Shown piece after piece: positions 34,178 to 51,505 of a DNA stretch of 64,000 nt; positions within the stretch are counted from its first letter, which is position 1; each line of letters starts with the position of its first letter. A program made the position numbers and the translations under genes. The stretch is from Escherichia coli. GTDB taxonomy: Bacteria > Pseudomonadota > Gammaproteobacteria > Enterobacterales > Enterobacteriaceae. The DNA lies in assembly GCF_003334355.1 (NCBI RefSeq), contig NZ_QOWP01000019.1. The stretch is one strand, 5' to 3'. The notes under the pieces are model-generated. The model saw nothing but the letters and a program-made list of their open reading frames with translations. It ran no database searches and was not told where the DNA came from.

Positions 34178-37100
34178 TCATGACTGATTAAAGCGAAACA
34201 GCGGTAACAGGAAACGTTGCGACTGTTCAACGATGGCCTCCATTGTCTCTGGTGTTAATTGCCGCCAGAGCCGTTGATACCAGATATCATCACCTTCGCC
34301 ACGCACCATCATGTTGCCTTCGTAAGCCTGAAGGAATTTCGTACGGGCTTTTTGCAACGTGGAATCGTCATCCAGCATGGCATCGTTTTGCGCGTCATAA
34401 CAGGTTTTTAGCCACGCGCCGCCACTTTCAGGTAACACCAGCAATGGCGCGGACATTCCTTCACGATACCCCTCAATCAGTTGTGAGAGGTAATGCAAAG
34501 CCTGTTCGGCTGCAAGCGGCGGAAAACGCCACTCACCGTCTTTGCGTAGAAAAAGGCGACTTTCGCCATTACCACCGCTGGCACAGTAGACAAGGTGTTC
34601 CAGCCAAAGTTGCATTCCCTGCGCCACACTTAATAAAGAGGGACGCCAGCGCAACAGGCCATCCGGCTGCACCTGCGGCAACCAGCCAGTTATCTGCACA
34701 CCGTTGCAGGCGAGATCAATTTCCATACTCTGCCCCGGCTGGCGACAGGCAATGACTCTGTCGGCAAGCTGCTGCATCTCCTGGCACTGTGTTTCCCAGA
34801 AAATTTCACCAAAAGCGCCATACGGTAAATCCCCTGCCGCCCGGAAGCGGCGGAACAAGCGTTCGGCATCATCCTGCTCAACCAGTGCATTCAATAACTG
34901 CTGATTGATTTGATAACGGCTAAGTCCTTCCAGAATAAATGGCTCGGTGTCTGGGATTTCGCTGTCTTCAGTACGGAAGTTCACCTGCAAACGCATCTGG
35001 AAGAACGCCCGCACCGGATGTGCCCAGAATCGTTGTAGCGTTTCCAGCGGTACGGTTTCCGGTAAGGTAAACGGCAGCGGCTGAACAAATTCAGAATGTG
35101 CTTTACCAGCCTGGCTGGCCGCAGGTAGCCATTCACGAGCATAGCTTTGTCGTTCGCCTGGCTGGTAGTTTTGTGGATCAAACGGCATCCGGGTATGGAG
35201 GCAAGTAAGATGCGCTTTTACCCTTGCCTCGCTTTCATCACAGTTGAGCGCTTCATCGCCCGGTAGATAATGACTTTGCCCGATGTAGTCGATCAGTTCC
35301 TGCACCAGTACCGACGGGAAACGTTCACTGTTATCCTGAATGGAACGCCCGATATAGCTGATATAGAGTTTTTGCTGCGCGGAAATTAACGCTTCCAGGA
35401 ACAGGTAGCGGTCGTCATCGCGACGGCTACGGTCGCCACGCTTCGGTTTCTGGCTCATCAGGTCAAAGCCCAATGGCGCAAGCTGACGTGGATAAACGCC
35501 GTCGTTCATTCCCAGCAGGCAAACCACTTTGAACGGAATTGAACGCATTGGCATCAGAGTACAAATGTTAACCGGTCCGGCGAGAAAACGCTGGCTGATA
35601 CGTTCTTGATCCAGACGCTGCGCCAGTTCATCACGCAATAGTGACAGCGGCACCGCGTCGCCATACTGCGCACCTAAACCTTCGGCGATAATCGCCTGCC
35701 ATTGTTGTTCGATCAGCGTCATCGCCGCTTCGGTTTCCGCATCCGGCAGGAAGAAGGCGTTGAGCATATCGCGACAAACCGGCAACCACTCTTCTAGCGG
35801 ACGCTCCTGTGCCAGCCCGCGACGCCAGATGTTTAGCTGCATTAGCAGTGAAGCCAGATGCCCCACCAGTTCTGCAATTAAGCCGCTCGATTCATCATAA
35901 GGTAGAACCGATTGCCACTCGCCCTGCGCGCTCTCCATCGCGTAGCCCAGCAACATACGCGTCAGGCCAAATCGCCAGGTGTGTTGTCCGGTGGCGGGGA
36001 GTTCCAGCTCGCGAACGTTGTCGTCATCTATCCCCCAACGAATGCCGGATTCGTTGACCCACTGGCGTAAATAACGCAGCCCTTCTTCGGTGATGTCAAA
36101 CCGCGCCGCCAGCACCGGCACATCCAGCAGCGCCAGCACATCCTCTGACACAAAGCGACTGTCAGGCAGTGATAACAGGCTGATAAACGCTTCCAGTACC
36201 GGATGTGACTGCCGCGCACGACGGTCGGAAATGGCGTAAGGCAGGTAACGATCCGCAGGTGCGCTACCAAACACTGCCTGAATAAACGGACTGTAGCTGT
36301 CGATATCAGCCACCATCACGATGATGTCGCGCGGAGTAAGTGTCGGGTCTTCCTCCAGCATCGCCAGCAAGCGATCGTGTAAAACTTCAACTTCACGCTG
36401 CGGGCTATGGCAAACGTGGAATGTGATACTGCTATCCAGTGGATCAAGCGGGCGTTTGTTATCGCTACGGGAAAACTCTTCGATGTTCACACCCGCAACG
36501 GCGCGGTTTTCCAGTTCCAGAATGTCAGACTGAATGTTATGCAGCAGGTTATCTGGCGTGACATCGACAAAGGCGTCCAGCTCCTGGCTGCTCTCCAGGT
36601 CAGAAAGGAGATAAATGTAGTCGCGCCCAAGCTTACCCCATGAAGCCAGCAGCGGGTTGCCGACATCCTGTTCACCATCGCTGTTAAAGAGCTGCCCGGC
36701 ATTTTCGCTATCACGAAATAGCGGCAATTCGCGATCTTCAAAACTGTGTCGACGCTGACGGGTCAGCAGTTTCGCCAGATAAGCAGGATCTTTAATATCG
36801 CCCCAGTAATAACGGCAGGGGTTGGTAAACAGGAGATGGATTTCAATATGTTTACCCAGCGCCTGGAGCGCCTGGAGATAAACAGGCGGTAACGCGGAAA
36901 TACCGCATATAAAGACGCGCGAAGGTAACCCCGGCGGGCAGGTCGTCGCGGACTCCAGCGTTTCGATAAAGCGCTGATAGAGATTGGCGCGGTGCCAGCG
37001 CGGTTGTCCGAGTTCATGGGTATATTCCACCAGCGCCTTCCACAACGGCGCTTGCCAGGCCTGTGCTTCTCCCAGCCCTTCAACCAAATGTCCTGTTTCC

Positions 37101-37546
37101 CATTGTGCCAGCCACTCCGGGCGATAGACCAGATACTGGTCAAACAGGTCCGCCGCTTTTGAGGAAAGCTGGAACAGTTTTCGCTTGTCGCTATCGTCAG
37201 TCAGATAATGCCGCAACAGGGTAAAGTCTTCGCGCTCCAGCAATTGCGGCAGCAGAGTCATCAGTTTCCAGCTCATGCTCTGTTTGTTAAAGGCGCTCTC
37301 TTTGGGGATTTCCGGTAACACCCGGACGAACATATCCCAGATAAAGCTCGCTGGCAGCGGAAAATCAATGTTTGCCGCAATACCAAACTTTTGCGACAGG
37401 GTCATTTGCAGCCACTGCGCCATACCGGTACTTTGCACCAGAATCATCTCTGGTTCGAAAGGATCGTCCAGCCGTTCGCGTTCGACAATAAACTCCATCA
37501 ACGCTTCCAGCACGTCCAGACGATTGGAATGGTAGACCCTTAACAT
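34178..37546 (-). CDS. recC: Exodeoxyribonuclease V gamma subunit RecC
   Basis: 1122-aa ORF recognised as RecC. Confidence 0.96.
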   Translation of the reverse strand: MLRVYHSNRLDVLEALMEFIVERERLDDPFEPEMILVQSTGMAQWLQMTLSQKFGIAANIDFPLPASFIWDMFVRVLPEIPKESAFNKQSMSWKLMTLLPQLLEREDFTLLRHYLTDDSDKRKLFQLSSKAADLFDQYLVYRPEWLAQWETGHLVEGLGEAQAWQAPLWKALVEYTHELGQPRWHRANLYQRFIETLESATTCPPGLPSRVFICGISALPPVYLQALQALGKHIEIHLLFTNPCRYYWGDIKDPAYLAKLLTRQRRHSFEDRELPLFRDSENAGQLFNSDGEQDVGNPLLASWGKLGRDYIYLLSDLESSQELDAFVDVTPDNLLHNIQSDILELENRAVAGVNIEEFSRSDNKRPLDPLDSSITFHVCHSPQREVEVLHDRLLAMLEEDPTLTPRDIIVMVADIDSYSPFIQAVFGSAPADRYLPYAISDRRARQSHPVLEAFISLLSLPDSRFVSEDVLALLDVPVLAARFDITEEGLRYLRQWVNESGIRWGIDDDNVRELELPATGQHTWRFGLTRMLLGYAMESAQGEWQSVLPYDESSGLIAELVGHLASLLMQLNIWRRGLAQERPLEEWLPVCRDMLNAFFLPDAETEAAMTLIEQQWQAIIAEGLGAQYGDAVPLSLLRDELAQRLDQERISQRFLAGPVNICTLMPMRSIPFKVVCLLGMNDGVYPRQLAPLGFDLMSQKPKRGDRSRRDDDRYLFLEALISAQQKLYISYIGRSIQDNSERFPSVLVQELIDYIGQSHYLPGDEALNCDESEARVKAHLTCLHTRMPFDPQNYQPGERQSYAREWLPAASQAGKAHSEFVQPLPFTLPETVPLETLQRFWAHPVRAFFQMRLQVNFRTEDSEIPDTEPFILEGLSRYQINQQLLNALVEQDDAERLFRRFRAAGDLPYGAFGEIFWETQCQEMQQLADRVIACRQPGQSMEIDLACNGVQITGWLPQVQPDGLLRWRPSLLSVAQGMQLWLEHLVYCASGGNGESRLFLRKDGEWRFPPLAAEQALHYLSQLIEGYREGMSAPLLVLPESGGAWLKTCYDAQNDAMLDDDSTLQKARTKFLQAYEGNMMVRGEGDDIWYQRLWRQLTPETMEAIVEQSQRFLLPLFRFNQS

Positions 37547-37558
37547 AGCGGCTCCTGA

Positions 37559-37882
37559 CTACTGACGATTCGGGCAATGCAGGCGGGTCATCTCGCCTTC
37601 TCTGCCCCCGGGTGAAACTAGCGTAACGCTGATGCTGACACATCCCGCCTGCGATGTCTGCATTCGGTTGACCTGCCAGTTGGCAGGTGGCGAAATCGCG
37701 CGCAGTTGCGTTTGCTGCCAACCATGCCGCCAGAGCTGTTGGTACTGGTTTCTGCTGGCGAGACTGTTCATTAATGTTCGCTGGATACCCGATAACGCAG
37801 TGACAATCATCACCATCAGCACCATCGCAACCATTACCTCCGGCAGGCTAAAGCCTTGTTGATTCTTCAGGGAAGCTGACAT
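37559..37882 (-). CDS. ppdC: Prepilin peptidase-dependent protein C (minor pseudopilin-like)
   Basis: 107-aa product from the ATG at 37882 ([19 protein letters not shown], prepilin-type N-terminus). Confidence 0.85.
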
Positions 37883-38274
37883 AATGCCCCCTCTTTCAGC
37901 GGACAAAAATCGCTCCAGCCGCGTGGCGAAAAAACAATTTTTCCATCAATGACTTCGCCTGTTCGCCACAACGAAACGCCTTCATAACCGGCAATCAATA
38001 AGGCTTCATTATCTGCCAGTAAACGCAAACAAACCTGGGCATCGGTTCCAGCGTACTGCGAGCACTGAACTGCTGGCTGCGTCTGCCAGGAGTGCATTTT
38101 TCCCCACGCCAGCGCCGACTGAACGATGGCCTGGCGGCGCAATGACTGACTTTCCATGCTCACGCGAGAGGCAAAACTGCGATCCTGCTGACTCATTCCT
38201 TGCAATAGCAAGCTACCCAAAACCAGCAGCATCAGGACCAGAGCCAGTGACGAAACACCTTTTTCGCGGTTCAC
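37867..38274 (-). CDS. ygdB: DUF2509 protein YgdB
   Basis: 135-aa ORF with an N-terminal hydrophobic segment, embedded in the ppd operon. Confidence 0.85.
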
Positions 38275-38834
38275 AGGTTGAATCCTGTCACGCTATAGCT
38301 GGCATCCACCACGGTTTGCGGTTCAGACTTACTGGCAGCACGCATATTAACCGTCAACACCGGCGAGAAGCCGCTGACATCCTGACGTACGACCTGAAAA
38401 GTGTCGATAATGATGGCATCCGGATTAGTGACTTTATCCCAGCCCTTACCTTCACAGGATGTCGCACCGCGTAGCGTTTCCAGCACATGCTCCTTCAGAC
38501 GAAATCCAATCTGGTCGGACTCTTTTACCGGTTCGCGATCCCAGATACCGTTACTGTTCGCATCCCACTGCACAATGATACAGTCACCCTGTCCGACAAT
38601 TTCCAGCCCTTCGCCGGTACAGCTGCCATGACAATAACCCGCCCTCTGGAGATGCTTCGCGACGGTAAATACCCGCAGCCAGATTTCATCTTCCAGCGCC
38701 AGCTTACGGGTGCCCGTTAAACTTTCACGCTGTAACGCAGGCAGAAAGCGTGCCGCTCCCAGCAACAATACGCTACTGATCGCCATAGCAATCAACACTT
38801 CCAGCAGAGAAAAACCTTGCTCTTTTACAGGCAT
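38271..38834 (-). CDS. ppdB: Prepilin peptidase-dependent protein B
   Basis: 187-aa product from the ATG at 38834 ([19 protein letters not shown]); the 267-aa ORF-track call is an extension. Confidence 0.88.
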
Positions 38835-39295
38835 CCTTCTGTTTCTCCTTGCTGACAAAGCCGGAGTCTTCCCCACGGCGAAACCACCAGCCACCACTCG
38901 CCCGTTGAGTTTTTGAAGCGAATATGCCCGGCCCATGCGGTATTGCGCAGGCCAAAGAAAGCAAGCGAAGGTGTCAGGTCGCTCATTTCGACTTCGGGCC
39001 AGCGTGGCACAAAGACCAATGGTGAACTGCCATGACAGGTATTCGCCCCAGCAACGGAACTCACAAGGCACCATAACGTCCCCTCTCTGATAACACTGAT
39101 ACTGTGGTCGCGGTTATGCCAGTTGGCATCTTCACGTAAATAGAGCAAATAGTCCCGCGCCTGGCTGGCGGTTTGCCAAAGCCGTTGCGACTGCTGCCAG
39201 TATTGCCAGCCATAGAGTCCACTTGCGCTTAGCATGACCAGAATCAGCATCGCGACCAGCGTTTCAATCAGCGTATAACCACGTTGTGTTTTCAT
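38825..39295 (-). CDS. ppdA: Prepilin peptidase-dependent protein A
   Basis: 156-aa ORF with prepilin N-terminus [16 protein letters not shown]. Confidence 0.9.
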
Positions 39296-39430
39296 GCCGG
39301 CAGTATGGAGCGAGGAGAAAAAAAGACGAGGGCCAGTTTCTATTTCTTCGGCGCATCTTCCGGACTATTTACGCCGTTGCAGGACGTTGCAAAATTTCGG
39401 GAAGGCGTCTCGAAGAATTTAATGGAGGGT

Positions 39431-39459
39431 AAAAAAAACCGACGCACACTAGCGTCGGC
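39431..39459 (-). terminator. Rho-independent terminator downstream of thyA
   Basis: On the minus strand ccgacgc...gcgtcgg hairpin followed by tttttttt. Confidence 0.8.
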
Positions 39460-39479
39460 TCTGGCAGGATGTTTCGTAA

Positions 39480-40274
39480 TTAGATAGCCACCGGCGCTTT
39501 AATGCCCGGATGCGGATCGTAGCCTTCAATCTCAAAATCTTCGAAACGGTAGTCGAAGATGGATTCGGGTTTACGTTTGATAATCAACTTCGGCAGCGGA
39601 CGCGGTTCGCGGCTTAATTGCAGATGAGTTTGATCCATATGATTGCTGTACAGGTGCGTGTCGCCCCCCGTCCAGACAAAATCGCCCACTTCCAGATCAC
39701 ACTGCTGCGCCATCATATGCACCAGTAACGCGTAGCTGGCAATGTTAAACGGCAGGCCGAGGAAAACGTCACAGGAGCGCTGATAAAGCTGGCAAGAGAG
39801 TTTGCCGTCTGCCACATAGAACTGGAAGAACGCATGGCACGGTGCCAGCGCCATTTTATCCAGTTCGCCTACGTTCCACGCTGAAACAATAATGCGGCGC
39901 GAATCCGGGTCGTTTTTCAGCTGGTTCAGTACCGTAGTGATCTGGTCAATATGACGACCATCCGGCGTTGGCCAGGTGCGCCACTGTTTACCATACACTG
40001 GCCCGAGGTCGCCGTTTTCATCGGCCCATTCGTCCCAGATGGTGACATTGTTTTCGTGTAGATAAGCAATGTTAGTGTCGCCCTGCAGAAACCACAGCAG
40101 TTCATGGATGATGGAACGCAGGTGGCAACGTTTAGTTGTCACCAGCGGGAATCCATCCTGCAGGTTAAAACGCATCTGATGACCAAAAATGGAAAGCGTT
40201 CCGGTTCCGGTACGGTCGTTTTTCTGTGTGCCTTCGTCGAGCACTTTTTGCATCAGTTCTAAATACTGTTTCAT
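39480..40274 (-). CDS. thyA: Thymidylate synthase
   Basis: 264-aa ORF recognised as ThyA. Confidence 0.97.
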
Positions 40275-51220: not shown

Positions 51221-51308
51221 AAAAAAAACCTGCGCATCCGCGCAGGTTGGTGCAAGAGACAGGGTACGAAGAGCGTACCGAATAATCTCACCAATCAATA
51301 CCTCTGGG
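51221..51308 (-). ncRNA. omrA: OmrA small RNA (RygA)
   Basis: Minus-strand sequence cccagaggtattgattggtgag...cctgcgcggatgcgcagg plus U8 matches OmrA from recall. Confidence 0.92.
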
Positions 51309-51422
51309 ATCTTGATTGTGGTCTGCACGACGACTCTTCGCCAGCGAGAAAACGCAAAGGAATGAAGGGAAATGCAACGAGGTGTGTAAATTGTCGGTTA
51401 CTGTTACAGATTGATGACCGGC

Positions 51423-51505
51423 AAAAAAAAACCTGCGCATCTGCGCAGGCTGGTGTAATTCATGTGCTCAACCCGAAGTTGACTTCACCTATCAATACCT
51501 CTGGG
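51423..51505 (-). ncRNA. omrB: OmrB small RNA (RygB)
   Basis: Minus-strand sequence cccagaggtattgataggtgaagtc...cctgcgcagatgcgcagg plus U9; shares 5' and 3' ends with OmrA. Confidence 0.92.

What the first reader, a model, noticed from the sequence alone, without database searches (positions are those of the whole stretch)
37559..39295. Compact ppdA-ppdB-ygdB-ppdC minor-pseudopilin operon directly upstream of recC
Four small genes with prepilin-type N-termini (plus the DUF2509 protein YgdB) overlap each other by 4-16 nt, indicating translational coupling, and are followed within 13 bp by recC. The function of this pseudopilin set in E. coli is still poorly defined.
Basis: partly seen in the sequence, partly recalled or inferred. 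Interest (0 to 1): 0.25.

Follow-up and report, generated by a model that had tools for sequence, protein, structure and literature searches.

The report
E. coli minor-pilin operon before recC
This is the well-known E. coli ppdA-ppdB-ygdB-ppdC operon, which encodes the four small proteins thought to start assembly of the bacterium's normally silent DNA-uptake pilus and is fused head-to-tail to the repair gene recC; it is real, conserved and already described.

Summary
On the minus strand lie ppdA (38825-39295), ppdB (38271-38834), ygdB (37867-38274) and ppdC (37559-37882). They overlap by 10, 4 and 16 nt. A 12-nt gap holding only a ribosome-binding site separates ppdC from recC. The locus is in 5426 of 5426 complete E. 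coli genomes. Gene order and junctions are the same in 80 Enterobacteriaceae species.

The proteins are the core minor pilins of the PpdD/Hof type IVa pilus:
- PpdA folds like GspH/FimU and carries an invariant C-terminal GRxR motif, the FimT DNA-binding motif.
- PpdB weakly matches a GspJ-like pilin.
- YgdB has a prepilin-like N-terminus without Glu5, as cap subunits do.
- PpdC is a small prepilin; its class was not confirmed.

The literature already reports Sxy/CRP control, equivalence to Haemophilus comNOPQ, adjacency to recC, priming of pilus assembly and a five-gene operon. The finding is therefore already known and of low interest.

My one addition is a promoter-like block written into synonymous sites of ppdC, 96 nt upstream of recC. 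Its 11-mer is exact in all 80 species. It suggests that recC also has its own embedded promoter. This is a prediction; I could not check it against transcription-start data.

The parts
38825..39295 (-). ppdA, a 156-aa minor pilin of the GspH/FimU/FimT class. It has a 6-residue leader ending in Gly6, Glu at +5 of the mature protein, and the C-terminal motif G142-R143-L-R145.
   Evidence: ORF. NCBIfam PRK10506 scores 249 bits against a cut-off of 158. Pfam finds N_methyl only. The AlphaFold2 model has pLDDT 95.2. The top 10 Foldseek PDB hits are all EpsH, FimU or XcpH. G6, E11, G142, R143 and R145 are invariant in a 60-sequence family alignment.
38271..38834 (-). ppdB, a 187-aa minor pilin, probably of the PilW/GspJ class. 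It overlaps ppdA by 10 nt and has its own Shine-Dalgarno sequence (AAGGAG) inside ppdA.
   Evidence: NCBIfam PRK10557 scores 326 bits. Pfam finds N_methyl. The family profile matches Thermus Tt1219 (5g23, a GspJ-like pilin) with E = 1.6e-3 over residues 4-150 (PMC5131608). Glu+5 is present in 73 of 78 scored orthologues.
37867..38274 (-). ygdB, 135 aa, DUF2509. It has a prepilin-like N-terminus (leader ending in Gly6, then a hydrophobic helix) but no Glu+5. It is the likely tip or cap subunit, the counterpart of PilX/GspK. It has a GTG start within GTGA, overlapping ppdB by 4 nt.
   Evidence: NCBIfam PRK11521 scores 253 bits. Pfam finds DUF2509. The +5 residue is Ala, Leu or another non-Glu residue in 78 of 78 orthologues. 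The model shows helix 5-60 followed by five strands, with pLDDT about 90. hhalign against the PpdA family gives E = 1e-4 over 130 columns.
37559..37882 (-). ppdC, a 107-aa minor pilin, probably of the PilV/GspI class. It overlaps ygdB by 16 nt.
   Evidence: NCBIfam PRK10332 scores 216 bits. Pfam finds N_methyl and T2SSppdC. Glu+5 is present in 78 of 80 orthologues. The model shows a long helix plus a three-stranded sheet.
37547..37558 (-). The ppdC-recC junction: 12 nt, TCAGGAGCCGCT, holding only the recC Shine-Dalgarno sequence (AGGAG, 37556-37552). There is no room for a promoter or terminator.
   Evidence: The 12-nt gap occurs in 61 of 80 species and a gap of 31 nt or less in 79 of 80. An SD-like 4-mer is present in 80 of 80.
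37632..37660 (-). Predicted promoter for recC embedded in ppdC codons 75-84. It reads CAGACA (-35-like, 37660-37655), a 17-bp spacer, then TGT + CAGCAT (extended -10-like, 37640-37632). The predicted start is near 37627-37624, giving a leader of about 80 nt.
   Evidence: The 11-mer TGTGTCAGCAT is exact in 80 of 80 loci. CAGACA lies exactly 12 nt upstream in 76 of 80. The 11-mer starts 96 nt before the recC ATG in 69 of 80. These codons are the only 5 of 100 amino-acid-conserved degenerate codons with at least 95% codon identity. A distant lineage has TGTGTATTATG at the same place. The assignment as a promoter is inferred, not shown.
39296..39479 (-). The thyA-ppdA spacer, which holds the operon's control region. 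Its features are:
- the thyA terminator hairpin plus T8 (39459-39431);
- CRP-S-like candidates at 39417-39396 and 39364-39343;
- the direct repeat TGCAAC-GTCC-TGCAAC (39391-39376);
- the hexamer CATACT (39307-39302), which ends 7 nt before the ppdA ATG.
There is no Shine-Dalgarno sequence.
   Evidence: Phylogenetic footprint of 70 species. CRP-S core scores are 6.66 and 6.01 against a background of 3.02 +/- 0.94. There is no strict TGCGA-N6-TCGCA match.
34178..37546 (-). recC (RecBCD gamma subunit), the fifth gene on the same strand.
   Evidence: It lies downstream of the ppd genes in all 80 species and in distant lineages L086, L090 and L092.

Best explanation
The four genes encode the core minor pilins of E. 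coli's chromosomal type IVa pilus / DNA-uptake machine. That machine consists of the major pilin PpdD, HofB/C, HofMNOPQ and a prepilin peptidase.

Proposed mechanism, step by step:
1. After insertion in the inner membrane, a prepilin peptidase cuts the short leaders after the conserved glycine (inferred from the motifs).
2. PpdB, PpdC and YgdB assemble into a tip complex capped by YgdB, the one subunit without Glu5.
3. PpdA (GspH/FimU/FimT class) links this complex to the first PpdD subunits, so that the complex primes fibre growth. Priming activity is published; the subunit roles are inferred by analogy with GspHIJK and FimU-PilVWX.
4. PpdA's invariant C-terminal GRxR motif, exposed at the tip, probably binds DNA, as shown for Legionella FimT. 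For PpdA itself this is inferred.

The overlapping stop/start junctions, most with a ribosome-binding site inside the upstream gene (weak or absent before ygdB), couple translation. This would make the four subunits in matched amounts.

Transcription starts in the thyA-ppdA spacer. According to the literature it needs Sxy (TfoX) plus CRP-cAMP, so the operon is silent in ordinary culture.

No terminator separates ppdC from recC, so operon transcripts should run into recC. A promoter-like element conserved inside ppdC probably gives recC its everyday, Sxy-independent expression.
For: Anatomy and conservation:
- Coordinates and overlaps.
- The same order thyA-ppdA-ppdB-ygdB-ppdC-recC in 80 of 80 species, with conserved junctions.
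- Presence in 5426 of 5426 E. coli genomes.

Pilin nature:
- N_methyl domains.
- Gly-1 and Glu+5 in nearly all PpdA, PpdB and PpdC orthologues, and no Glu+5 in any of 78 YgdB orthologues.
- Invariant cysteines in all four proteins.
- The PpdA model (pLDDT 95) matches only GspH/FimU-family structures with probability about 1.0 (0.97-1.00).
- GRxR is invariant in PpdA and present in 75 of 93 full-length family members.
- The PpdB profile matches the GspJ-like Tt1219.
- YgdB and PpdC are predicted as a long N-terminal helix plus a beta-sheet.

Literature:
- The minor pilins PpdAB-YgdB-PpdC prime PulG fibre assembly in a pulHIJK mutant (Cisneros 2012, as cited in PMC5131608).
- Tip complexes are capped by a subunit lacking Glu5 (PMC10191384, PMC7541494).
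- The FimT GRxR motif binds DNA (PMC8897410).
- The operon is Sxy-regulated and corresponds in position to comNOPQ next to recC (PMC12616744, PMC1635313).
- It is listed as the operon ppdAB-ygdB-ppdC-recC (PMC3936743).

recC expression:
- No terminator signal beyond chance.
- The junction holds only an SD.
- Nucleotide-level conservation of the promoter-like block in ppdC.
Against: - E. coli PpdA has no Pfam GspH match, and NCBIfam GspH/GspJ hits cover only the N-terminal helix, below cut-off.
- No canonical CRP-S site (TGCGA-N6-TCGCA with 2 mismatches or fewer) lies upstream of ppdA. Only weak conserved candidates exist.
- The embedded recC promoter fails the simple consensus scan, because CAGCAT matches only 3 of 6 positions. 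I could not check it against any transcription-start data set.
- One distant lineage has the operon without recC downstream (L085), so the link to recC is not obligatory.
- E. coli is barely transformable, and DNA binding by PpdA is untested.
Confidence: 0.85

Rival explanations
1. The four proteins are pseudopilins of a type II secretion system, as the Pfam name 'T2SSppdC' and the reader's word 'pseudopilin' imply. On this view they work with the Gsp secreton rather than with a pilus.
For: PpdA's closest structures include the T2SS proteins EpsH and XcpH. The Pfam family is named T2SSppdC. The four proteins can substitute for PulHIJK in priming PulG fibres (Cisneros 2012, as cited in PMC5131608).
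Against: FimU, a type IV pilus minor pilin, matches PpdA equally well. The operon is co-regulated by Sxy with the ppdD/hof pilus genes and corresponds by position to comNOPQ of the Haemophilus DNA-uptake system (PMC12616744, PMC1635313). From my own knowledge, not tested here, T2SS gene clusters carry their own gspHIJK. The GRxR motif is a FimT (pilus, DNA uptake) feature that is poorly defined in FimU and not described for GspH (PMC8897410).
Confidence: 0.07
2. The operon is an evolutionary relic. It would be kept mainly because it carries the promoter and upstream transcription for the essential-in-practice gene recC, and the pilin products would have no present function in E. coli.
For: According to the literature the genes are silent in laboratory culture, and E. 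coli transforms very poorly (PMC12616744). The proteins evolve fast: 35-75% identity across genera, against 85-100% for ThyA and 70-99% for RecC. Truncated and fused variants exist. The most strictly conserved nucleotides in the operon serve a recC-proximal element.
Against: The reading frames are intact, with conserved lengths, in 77-80 of 80 species and in all but one of the E. coli genomes. Functional residues are invariant: Gly-1, Glu5, GRxR and the cysteines. The overlap junctions are conserved. Pili can be reconstituted using these genes (bioRxiv 10.1101/856302). The distant lineage L085 keeps all four genes without recC downstream.
Confidence: 0.05
3. The invariant block in ppdC is not a recC promoter. 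It could instead be an RNA-level signal (a processing or regulatory site), an antisense promoter (the plus strand reads CTGACA, a 5-of-6 match to a -35 hexamer), or a codon constraint linked to the invariant Cys-Val-Ser-Ile.
For: CAGCAT is a weak -10 hexamer and fails the consensus scan. The plus strand carries CTGACA at 37635-37640 (read directly from the sequence). No experimental start site was available.
Against: The position relative to recC is fixed at 96 nt in 69 of 80 species, and the 17-bp hexamer spacing is fixed in 76 of 80. It has -11A, -7T and the TG of extended -10 promoters. A distant lineage has the better hexamer TATTAT at the same place. The predicted leader shows no unusual RNA structure (z = 0.38). 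The plus-strand -10 candidates lack the key A at position 2. recC needs some Sxy-independent expression, and the 12-nt gap cannot hold a promoter.
Confidence: 0.25

Closest known systems
Pseudomonas aeruginosa fimU-pilV-pilW-pilX (with Neisseria pilHIJK): the core minor pilins of type IVa pili
   Same: - Four small prepilin-type genes in one tight operon.
- One member is of the GspH/FimU fold; PpdA matches FimU 4ipu with probability 1.0.
- One member lacks Glu5, YgdB as for PilX (PMC7541494).
- The proposed role is a tip complex that primes pilus assembly.
   Different: - There is no pilY1 or pilE gene in the E. coli locus.
- YgdB (135 aa) is smaller than PilX, and no significant sequence or fold match to PilV, PilW or PilX was obtained here.
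- The gene order has the Glu5-less subunit third and the smallest pilin last.
- The operon is fused to recC and controlled by Sxy/CRP.
Haemophilus influenzae comNOPQ (HI0938-HI0941)
   Same: - Four similar-sized genes lie directly upstream of recC, in the same orientation.
- They belong to the CRP-S/Sxy competence regulon.
- They were treated as orthologues by position as early as 2006 (PMC1635313).
- ComN/PpdA is predicted to be a DNA receptor (PMC12616744).
   Different: - In Haemophilus the genes are shown to be required for DNA uptake. In E. coli natural transformation is marginal.
- Sequence similarity was too low for BLAST detection in 2006.
Type II secretion minor pseudopilins GspH-GspI-GspJ-GspK
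   Same: - The four-subunit logic is the same: an H-class adaptor, an I-J core and a Glu5-less K cap.
- PpdA matches EpsH and XcpH.
- PpdB matches the GspJ-like Tt1219.
- The two sets are functionally interchangeable in priming PulG fibres (as cited in PMC5131608).
   Different: - The ppd genes are not inside a gsp cluster.
- They belong to a different regulon.
- YgdB is less than half the size of GspK.
- NCBIfam GspH and GspJ models match only the N-terminal helix, below cut-off.
Legionella pneumophila FimT (a DNA-binding minor pilin)
   Same: - It has the GspH/FimU-type fold.
- It has a conserved C-terminal GRxR motif. In PpdA this is G142-R143-x-R145, invariant in 60 of 60 aligned sequences (PMC8897410).
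   Different: - PpdA has a C-terminal cysteine pair (C147/C155) that Legionella FimT lacks.
- DNA binding by PpdA has not been shown.
- FimT itself was not among the listed fold hits.

Membership tests
Type IV pilin / pseudopilin superfamily (class III signal peptide proteins) | Short positively charged leader ending in Gly, followed by a hydrophobic segment of about 20 residues (N_methyl motif) | tested here: met
   Pfam N_methyl matches PpdA, PpdB and PpdC with E = 5e-7 to 1e-8. YgdB has the Gly and the hydrophobic helix but no Pfam N_methyl hit.
Type IV pilin / pseudopilin superfamily (class III signal peptide proteins) | Glu at position +5 of the mature protein (absent only in cap subunits) | tested here: met
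   Glu+5 is present in PpdA 78 of 79, PpdB 73 of 78 and PpdC 78 of 80 orthologues. In YgdB it is present in 0 of 78.
Type IV pilin / pseudopilin superfamily (class III signal peptide proteins) | Long N-terminal alpha-helix packed on an antiparallel beta-sheet | tested here: met
   In the AlphaFold2 models, PpdA has H9-60 plus 8 strands (pLDDT 95.2). YgdB has H5-60 plus 5 strands. PpdC has a 45-residue helix plus 3 strands, with pLDDT about 85-93 in the folded parts.
Type IV pilin / pseudopilin superfamily (class III signal peptide proteins) | Cleavage and N-methylation by a prepilin peptidase | not testable with these tools
   This needs biochemistry. The name 'prepilin peptidase-dependent' comes from earlier experimental work that was not read here.
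GspH / FimU / FimT minor pilins (PpdA) | GspH-type fold with two beta-sheets after the helix | tested here: met
   The top 10 Foldseek hits are EpsH 2qv8, FimU 4ipu and XcpH 9a1f/9a1e, with probability 0.97-1.00 and TM-score 0.44-0.64. Hits outside the family have probability below 0.2.
GspH / FimU / FimT minor pilins (PpdA) | Match to Pfam GspH (PF12019) or NCBIfam TIGR01708 | tested here: not met
   There is no PF12019 hit for E. coli PpdA. TIGR01708 scores 18 bits against a cut-off of 80. A distant family member, P0246, carries a weak PF12019 hit. The family profile matches FimU 4ipu with only E = 0.05.
GspH / FimU / FimT minor pilins (PpdA) | C-terminal GRxR motif (FimT subgroup, DNA binding) | tested here: met
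   G142, R143 and R145 are invariant. The motif is present in 75 of 93 full-length family members. DNA binding itself is not testable here.
GspJ / PilW minor pilins (PpdB) | Sequence or fold similarity to GspJ-class pilins beyond the N-terminal helix | tested here: inconclusive
   The profile matches the GspJ-like Tt1219 (5g23) with E = 1.6e-3 over residues 4-150. NCBIfam gspJ covers residues 6-46 only, at 19.8 bits against a cut-off of 64.85. No structure was predicted for PpdB.
GspK / PilX cap subunits (YgdB) | Prepilin-like N-terminus lacking Glu5 | tested here: met
   The +5 residue is Ala, Leu or another non-Glu residue in 78 of 78 orthologues. The criterion comes from PMC7541494 and PMC10191384.
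GspK / PilX cap subunits (YgdB) | Fold similarity to GspK or PilX | tested here: inconclusive
GspI / PilV minor pilins (PpdC) | Small pilin with a helix plus a three-stranded sheet, similar to GspI | tested here: inconclusive
   The predicted secondary structure fits. There is no significant PDB match by sequence profile or by fold.
CRP-S (Sxy-dependent) regulon | A 22-bp CRP site with C (or G) at position 6, core TGCGA-N6-TCGCA, in the promoter | tested here: inconclusive
   There is no match with 2 mismatches or fewer in 39296-39479. The best conserved candidates are TTCTTCGAGACGCCTTCCCGAA (39417-39396, mean core 6.66 of 10 over 70 species) and 39364-39343 (6.01), against a background of 3.02 +/- 0.94.
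CRP-S (Sxy-dependent) regulon | Induction by Sxy that depends on CRP | not testable with these tools
   Reported for this operon by Sinha 2009 and by Jaskolska and Gerdes 2015, as cited in PMC12616744. The primary papers are not held.
Five-gene operon ppdAB-ygdB-ppdC-recC | Same strand, no terminator, junctions too short for a promoter | tested here: met
Five-gene operon ppdAB-ygdB-ppdC-recC | A transcript spanning ppdC and recC | not testable with these tools
   It is listed as a polycistronic operon in PMC3936743. No transcript data could be read here.

The most novel reading that the evidence does not exclude
recC may be under two-tier control that is conserved across Enterobacteriaceae. 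An extended -10 promoter written into synonymous sites of ppdC would give basal expression. Sxy/CRP-driven read-through from the competence-pilin operon would add RecC exactly when the DNA-uptake machine is built. This would tie the Chi-recognising subunit of RecBCD to the fate of incoming DNA. In the same reading, PpdA's invariant GRxR tail is the DNA receptor at the tip of the E. coli pilus, and ppdA is translated from a leaderless mRNA.
Probability: 0.15. Interest if true: 0.45.

Novelty: already known. Interest (0 to 1): 0.15.

Why it matters
As a finding it adds little. The operon, its minor-pilin nature, its Sxy/CRP control, its equivalence to comNOPQ and its adjacency to recC are all in the literature and in standard annotation.

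Its wider relevance is that this locus is the least-studied part of the cryptic DNA-uptake system of E. coli and its relatives. The invariant GRxR motif of PpdA gives a concrete, testable candidate for the DNA-binding subunit.

The conserved promoter-like block inside ppdC is a clean example of a regulatory signal for one gene constraining the codons of another. It explains how recC can be fused to a silent operon and still be expressed. It also warns that 'clean' deletions of ppdC could lower RecC.

Tried and rejected
- Strict CRP-S pattern search in the window: nothing in the ppdA upstream region, and the total number of hits was below chance.
- Consensus promoter and terminator scan over 36800-39800: one plus-strand promoter-like site and three weak hairpins, no more than in shuffles.
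- Rfam scan of the whole window: no RNA family in or near the operon.
- Sequence searches of PDB with single proteins: no hits for PpdA or YgdB.
- Sequence searches of PDB with profiles: YgdB and PpdC gave nothing meaningful. The Ika8 hit for YgdB (E = 1e-4, with no stretch passing on its own) was judged spurious.
- Locus retrieval with the diverse PpdA alignment A1: failed for lack of a conserved stretch. It succeeded with the closer set A2.
- Looking for an experimental recC transcription start in supplementary tables: none was found. The tables tried were SMRT-Cappable-seq (PMC6131387), Kim 2012 (PMC3415461), Conway 2014 (PMC4161252) and Cappable-seq (PMC4782308). The files were absent, cut, or lacked the genes.
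- Key primary papers not held: Sinha 2009 and Finch 1986.
- RNA folding of the predicted recC leader: not different from shuffles.
- Within-species hypervariability: diversity in ppdB-ygdB is only slightly above that of thyA and recC, so it was not pursued.
Full report
**What is there.** The window is an E. coli chromosome segment. The best match is 100% identical over the locus, and the annotated order there is ptsP-lgt-thyA-ppdA-ppdB-ygdB-ppdC-recC-ptrA-recB-recD.

On the minus strand the ORFs are:
- ppdA, 38825-39295, 156 aa;
- ppdB, 38271-38834, 187 aa;
- ygdB, 37867-38274, 135 aa, GTG start;
- ppdC, 37559-37882, 107 aa;
- recC, 34178-37546.

Successive genes overlap by 10, 4 (GTGA) and 16 nt. 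The ppdC stop is followed by 12 nt, TCAGGAGCCGCT, and then the recC ATG. ppdB, ppdC and recC have a clear Shine-Dalgarno sequence inside the preceding gene or gap, ygdB has only a weak one (CAGGA), and ppdA has none. The one slip is that only three of the four proteins have a fully canonical prepilin N-terminus.

**Is it more than chance?** The 2.2-kb stretch is present in all 5426 complete E. coli genomes.

A genome scan with a PpdA alignment returned 80 loci from different Enterobacteriaceae species. In every locus that reaches far enough upstream (75 of 80) the order is thyA-ppdA-ppdB-ygdB-ppdC-recC, and all 80 have ppdA-ppdB-ygdB-ppdC-recC. The junctions are kept almost to the base:
- ppdB/ygdB overlap of 4 nt in 76 of 79;
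- ygdB/ppdC overlap of 16 nt in 73 of 80;
- ppdA/ppdB overlap of 10 or 7 nt in 73 of 79;
- ppdC-recC gap of 12 nt in 61 of 80, and 31 nt or less in 79 of 80.

The pilin proteins diverge fast, typically 45-70% identity to E. coli and down to 35%. ThyA stays at 85-100% and the RecC N-terminus at 70-99%. Within E. coli, nucleotide diversity of ppdB-ygdB is only slightly above that of the flanking genes.

Distant relatives with 24-38% PpdA identity mostly keep the same neighbourhood, including recC (L086, L090, L092). One lineage has the four genes after thyA but pntBA instead of recC downstream (L085).

**What the proteins are.** All four match their NCBIfam equivalog models far above cut-off. 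Pfam sees the N-terminal methylation motif in PpdA, PpdB and PpdC, T2SSppdC in PpdC, and DUF2509 in YgdB.

Across orthologues, the leader ends in Gly and the mature protein has Glu at +5 in PpdA, PpdB and PpdC. YgdB has the Gly and the hydrophobic helix but never Glu+5 (0 of 78). The literature states that priming complexes are capped by a subunit lacking Glu5, namely PilX or GspK (PMC7541494, PMC10191384). YgdB is therefore the likely cap.

*PpdA.* An exhaustive search of 1.84 billion representative proteins found a small family of 186 clusters. In a 60-sequence alignment the invariant positions are Gly6, Glu11, Gly142, Arg143 and Arg145. The last three form a C-terminal GRxR motif, found in 75 of 93 full-length members. 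This is the motif shown to bind DNA in Legionella FimT (PMC8897410).

The AlphaFold2 model of PpdA is confident (pLDDT 95.2). Its ten best PDB matches are all GspH/FimU-family minor pilins: EpsH, FimU and XcpH, with probability 0.97-1.00. At the sequence level the link is weak: no Pfam GspH hit, and E = 0.05 to FimU.

*PpdB.* Its profile matches the GspJ-like Thermus pilin Tt1219 with E = 1.6e-3 over 147 residues (PMC5131608).

*YgdB and PpdC.* Modelled as a fused pair, both show the pilin layout of a long helix followed by a sheet, with good confidence. Fold searches with that fused model were uninformative. Their assignment to the PilX/GspK and PilV/GspI classes therefore rests on the missing Glu5, size, gene count and analogy. 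A profile-profile comparison of YgdB with the PpdA family gives E = 1e-4 over 130 columns.

**What is already known.**
- Cameron and Redfield (2006) noted four prepilin-peptidase-dependent genes next to recC in both Enterobacteriaceae and Pasteurellaceae. They treated them as orthologues of the H. influenzae competence genes now called comNOPQ (PMC1635313).
- A 2025 paper repeats the synteny. It states that the E. coli operon is Sxy-regulated, with ppdA the most strongly induced gene, and predicts ComN/PpdA to be the DNA receptor (PMC12616744).
- PMC5131608 cites Cisneros 2012 for the result that PpdAB-YgdB-PpdC can prime PulG fibre assembly in a pulHIJK mutant.
- The genes are used as the minor-pilin module in reconstituted E. 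coli pilus systems (bioRxiv 10.1101/856302).
- PMC3936743 lists ppdAB-ygdB-ppdC-recC as one polycistronic operon.

The finding is already known.

**Read-through versus an independent recC promoter.** No terminator-like hairpin beyond chance lies between ppdA and recC. The junction holds only a ribosome-binding site. Any transcript of the ppd genes should therefore continue into recC. Yet recC must be expressed when the Sxy-dependent operon is silent.

Codon-level analysis gives a candidate explanation. Of 100 amino-acid-conserved, degenerate codon positions in the four genes, only five keep the same codon in at least 95% of 74 species. All five lie in ppdC codons 76 and 81-84.

They form CAGACA (37660-37655) and TGTGTCAGCAT (37642-37632). 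The 11-mer is exact in 80 of 80 loci. CAGACA lies exactly 12 nt upstream in 76 of 80. The 11-mer starts 96 nt before the recC ATG in 69 of 80.

Read on the gene strand this is a -35-like hexamer, a 17-bp spacer, a TG motif and the hexamer CAGCAT, which has the critical A at position 2 and T at position 6. That is the form of an extended -10 promoter. A distant lineage has TGTGTATTATG at the same position.

I infer a recC promoter embedded in ppdC, with a leader of about 80 nt that has no special RNA structure. This is a prediction. I could not find start-site data to test it. I also could not read the 1986 recC sequence paper, which may already describe such a promoter.

**Upstream control region.** A footprint of the thyA-ppdA spacer across 70 species shows:
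- the thyA terminator hairpin (39459-39431), with varying stem sequences that keep the pairing;
- a direct repeat TGCAAC-GTCC-TGCAAC (39391-39376), the best-conserved block;
- a hexamer cA.AcT (CATACT, 39307-39302) that ends 7 nt before the A of the ppdA ATG.

Position 2 of the hexamer is A and position 6 is T in 70 of 78 species each. An SD-like sequence is absent in 75 of 78. This fits a -10 element and a leaderless ppdA mRNA, but it is untested.

No strict CRP-S site exists. The best conserved CRP-S-like 22-mers are 39417-39396 and 39364-39343. I cannot say which, if either, is the site reported in the literature.

**Verdict.** The locus is ordinary in the sense of being a known, annotated, conserved operon.

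The most likely mechanism is a translationally coupled set of four minor pilins. They would form the priming tip complex of the Sxy-induced PpdD pilus, with PpdA as a probable DNA-binding subunit. recC is fused downstream but probably also served by its own embedded promoter.

Interest is low. The embedded promoter, the possible leaderless start and the GRxR motif are modest, testable additions.

Noticed in passing
window 37632-37660 (minus strand, inside ppdC): A promoter-like block, CAGACA-N12-TGTGTCAGCAT, is written into synonymous sites of ppdC. The 11-mer is exact in 80 of 80 Enterobacteriaceae loci, and the block holds the only 5 of 100 conserved degenerate codons with a fixed codon. It is a likely recC promoter.
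   Followed up: yes
window 39296-39307 (minus strand): ppdA lacks a Shine-Dalgarno sequence in 75 of 78 species. A conserved -10-like hexamer (CATACT; A at position 2 and T at position 6 in 70 of 78 each) ends 7 nt before the A of the ATG. This suggests a leaderless mRNA.
   Followed up: partly
window 39376-39391 (minus strand): The direct repeat TGCAAC-GTCC-TGCAAC, with a period of 10 nt, is the best-conserved block of the thyA-ppdA spacer across 70 species. It does not fit a CRP site, and I do not know what binds it.
   Followed up: partly
window 39431-39459 (minus strand): The thyA intrinsic terminator (stem CCGACGC/GCGTCGG plus T8) is conserved across genera, with varying stem sequences that keep the pairing. 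It isolates the ppd operon from thyA transcription.
   Followed up: partly
window 22725-22801 (plus strand): The window has only one initiator tRNA-Met gene here. The otherwise matching strain Ecol_AZ147 has three tandem copies at the corresponding place. This is either copy-number variation or a collapsed assembly.
   Followed up: partly
protein P0062 (E. coli contigs; corresponds to window 37559-39295): A 218-aa protein joins the N-terminal 97 residues of PpdA to a PpdC domain. It is seen on 6 contigs and implies a deletion of ppdB-ygdB in some strains. Truncated PpdA forms of 137-142 aa occur in Shigella boydii and some E. coli.
   Followed up: no
L085:4600-9300: In a distant lineage (PpdA 24% identical) the four genes follow thyA, but pntB/pntA on the opposite strand follows them instead of recC. 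A PAAR-motif gene and a TM2-domain gene lie between thyA and ppdA.
   Followed up: no
L090:7537-7929 and 7907 onward (CP158507.1): In a 3.1-Mb genome with 26% PpdA identity, the ppdC homologue overlaps the called recC start by 23 nt. This junction is even tighter than in E. coli.
   Followed up: no
L088:599-1492: A distant PpdA-family member (26% identity) carries a weak Pfam GspH hit and sits next to a ComP_DUS-type pilin gene. It forms a sequence bridge between the PpdA family and FimT/GspH-type pilins of other DNA-uptake loci.
   Followed up: no
window 18034-18239, 21255-21297, 51221-51505: Rfam finds the expected small RNAs of this chromosome region: GcvB, ES036 (CssrF), and OmrA and OmrB. 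None is near the operon.
   Followed up: no
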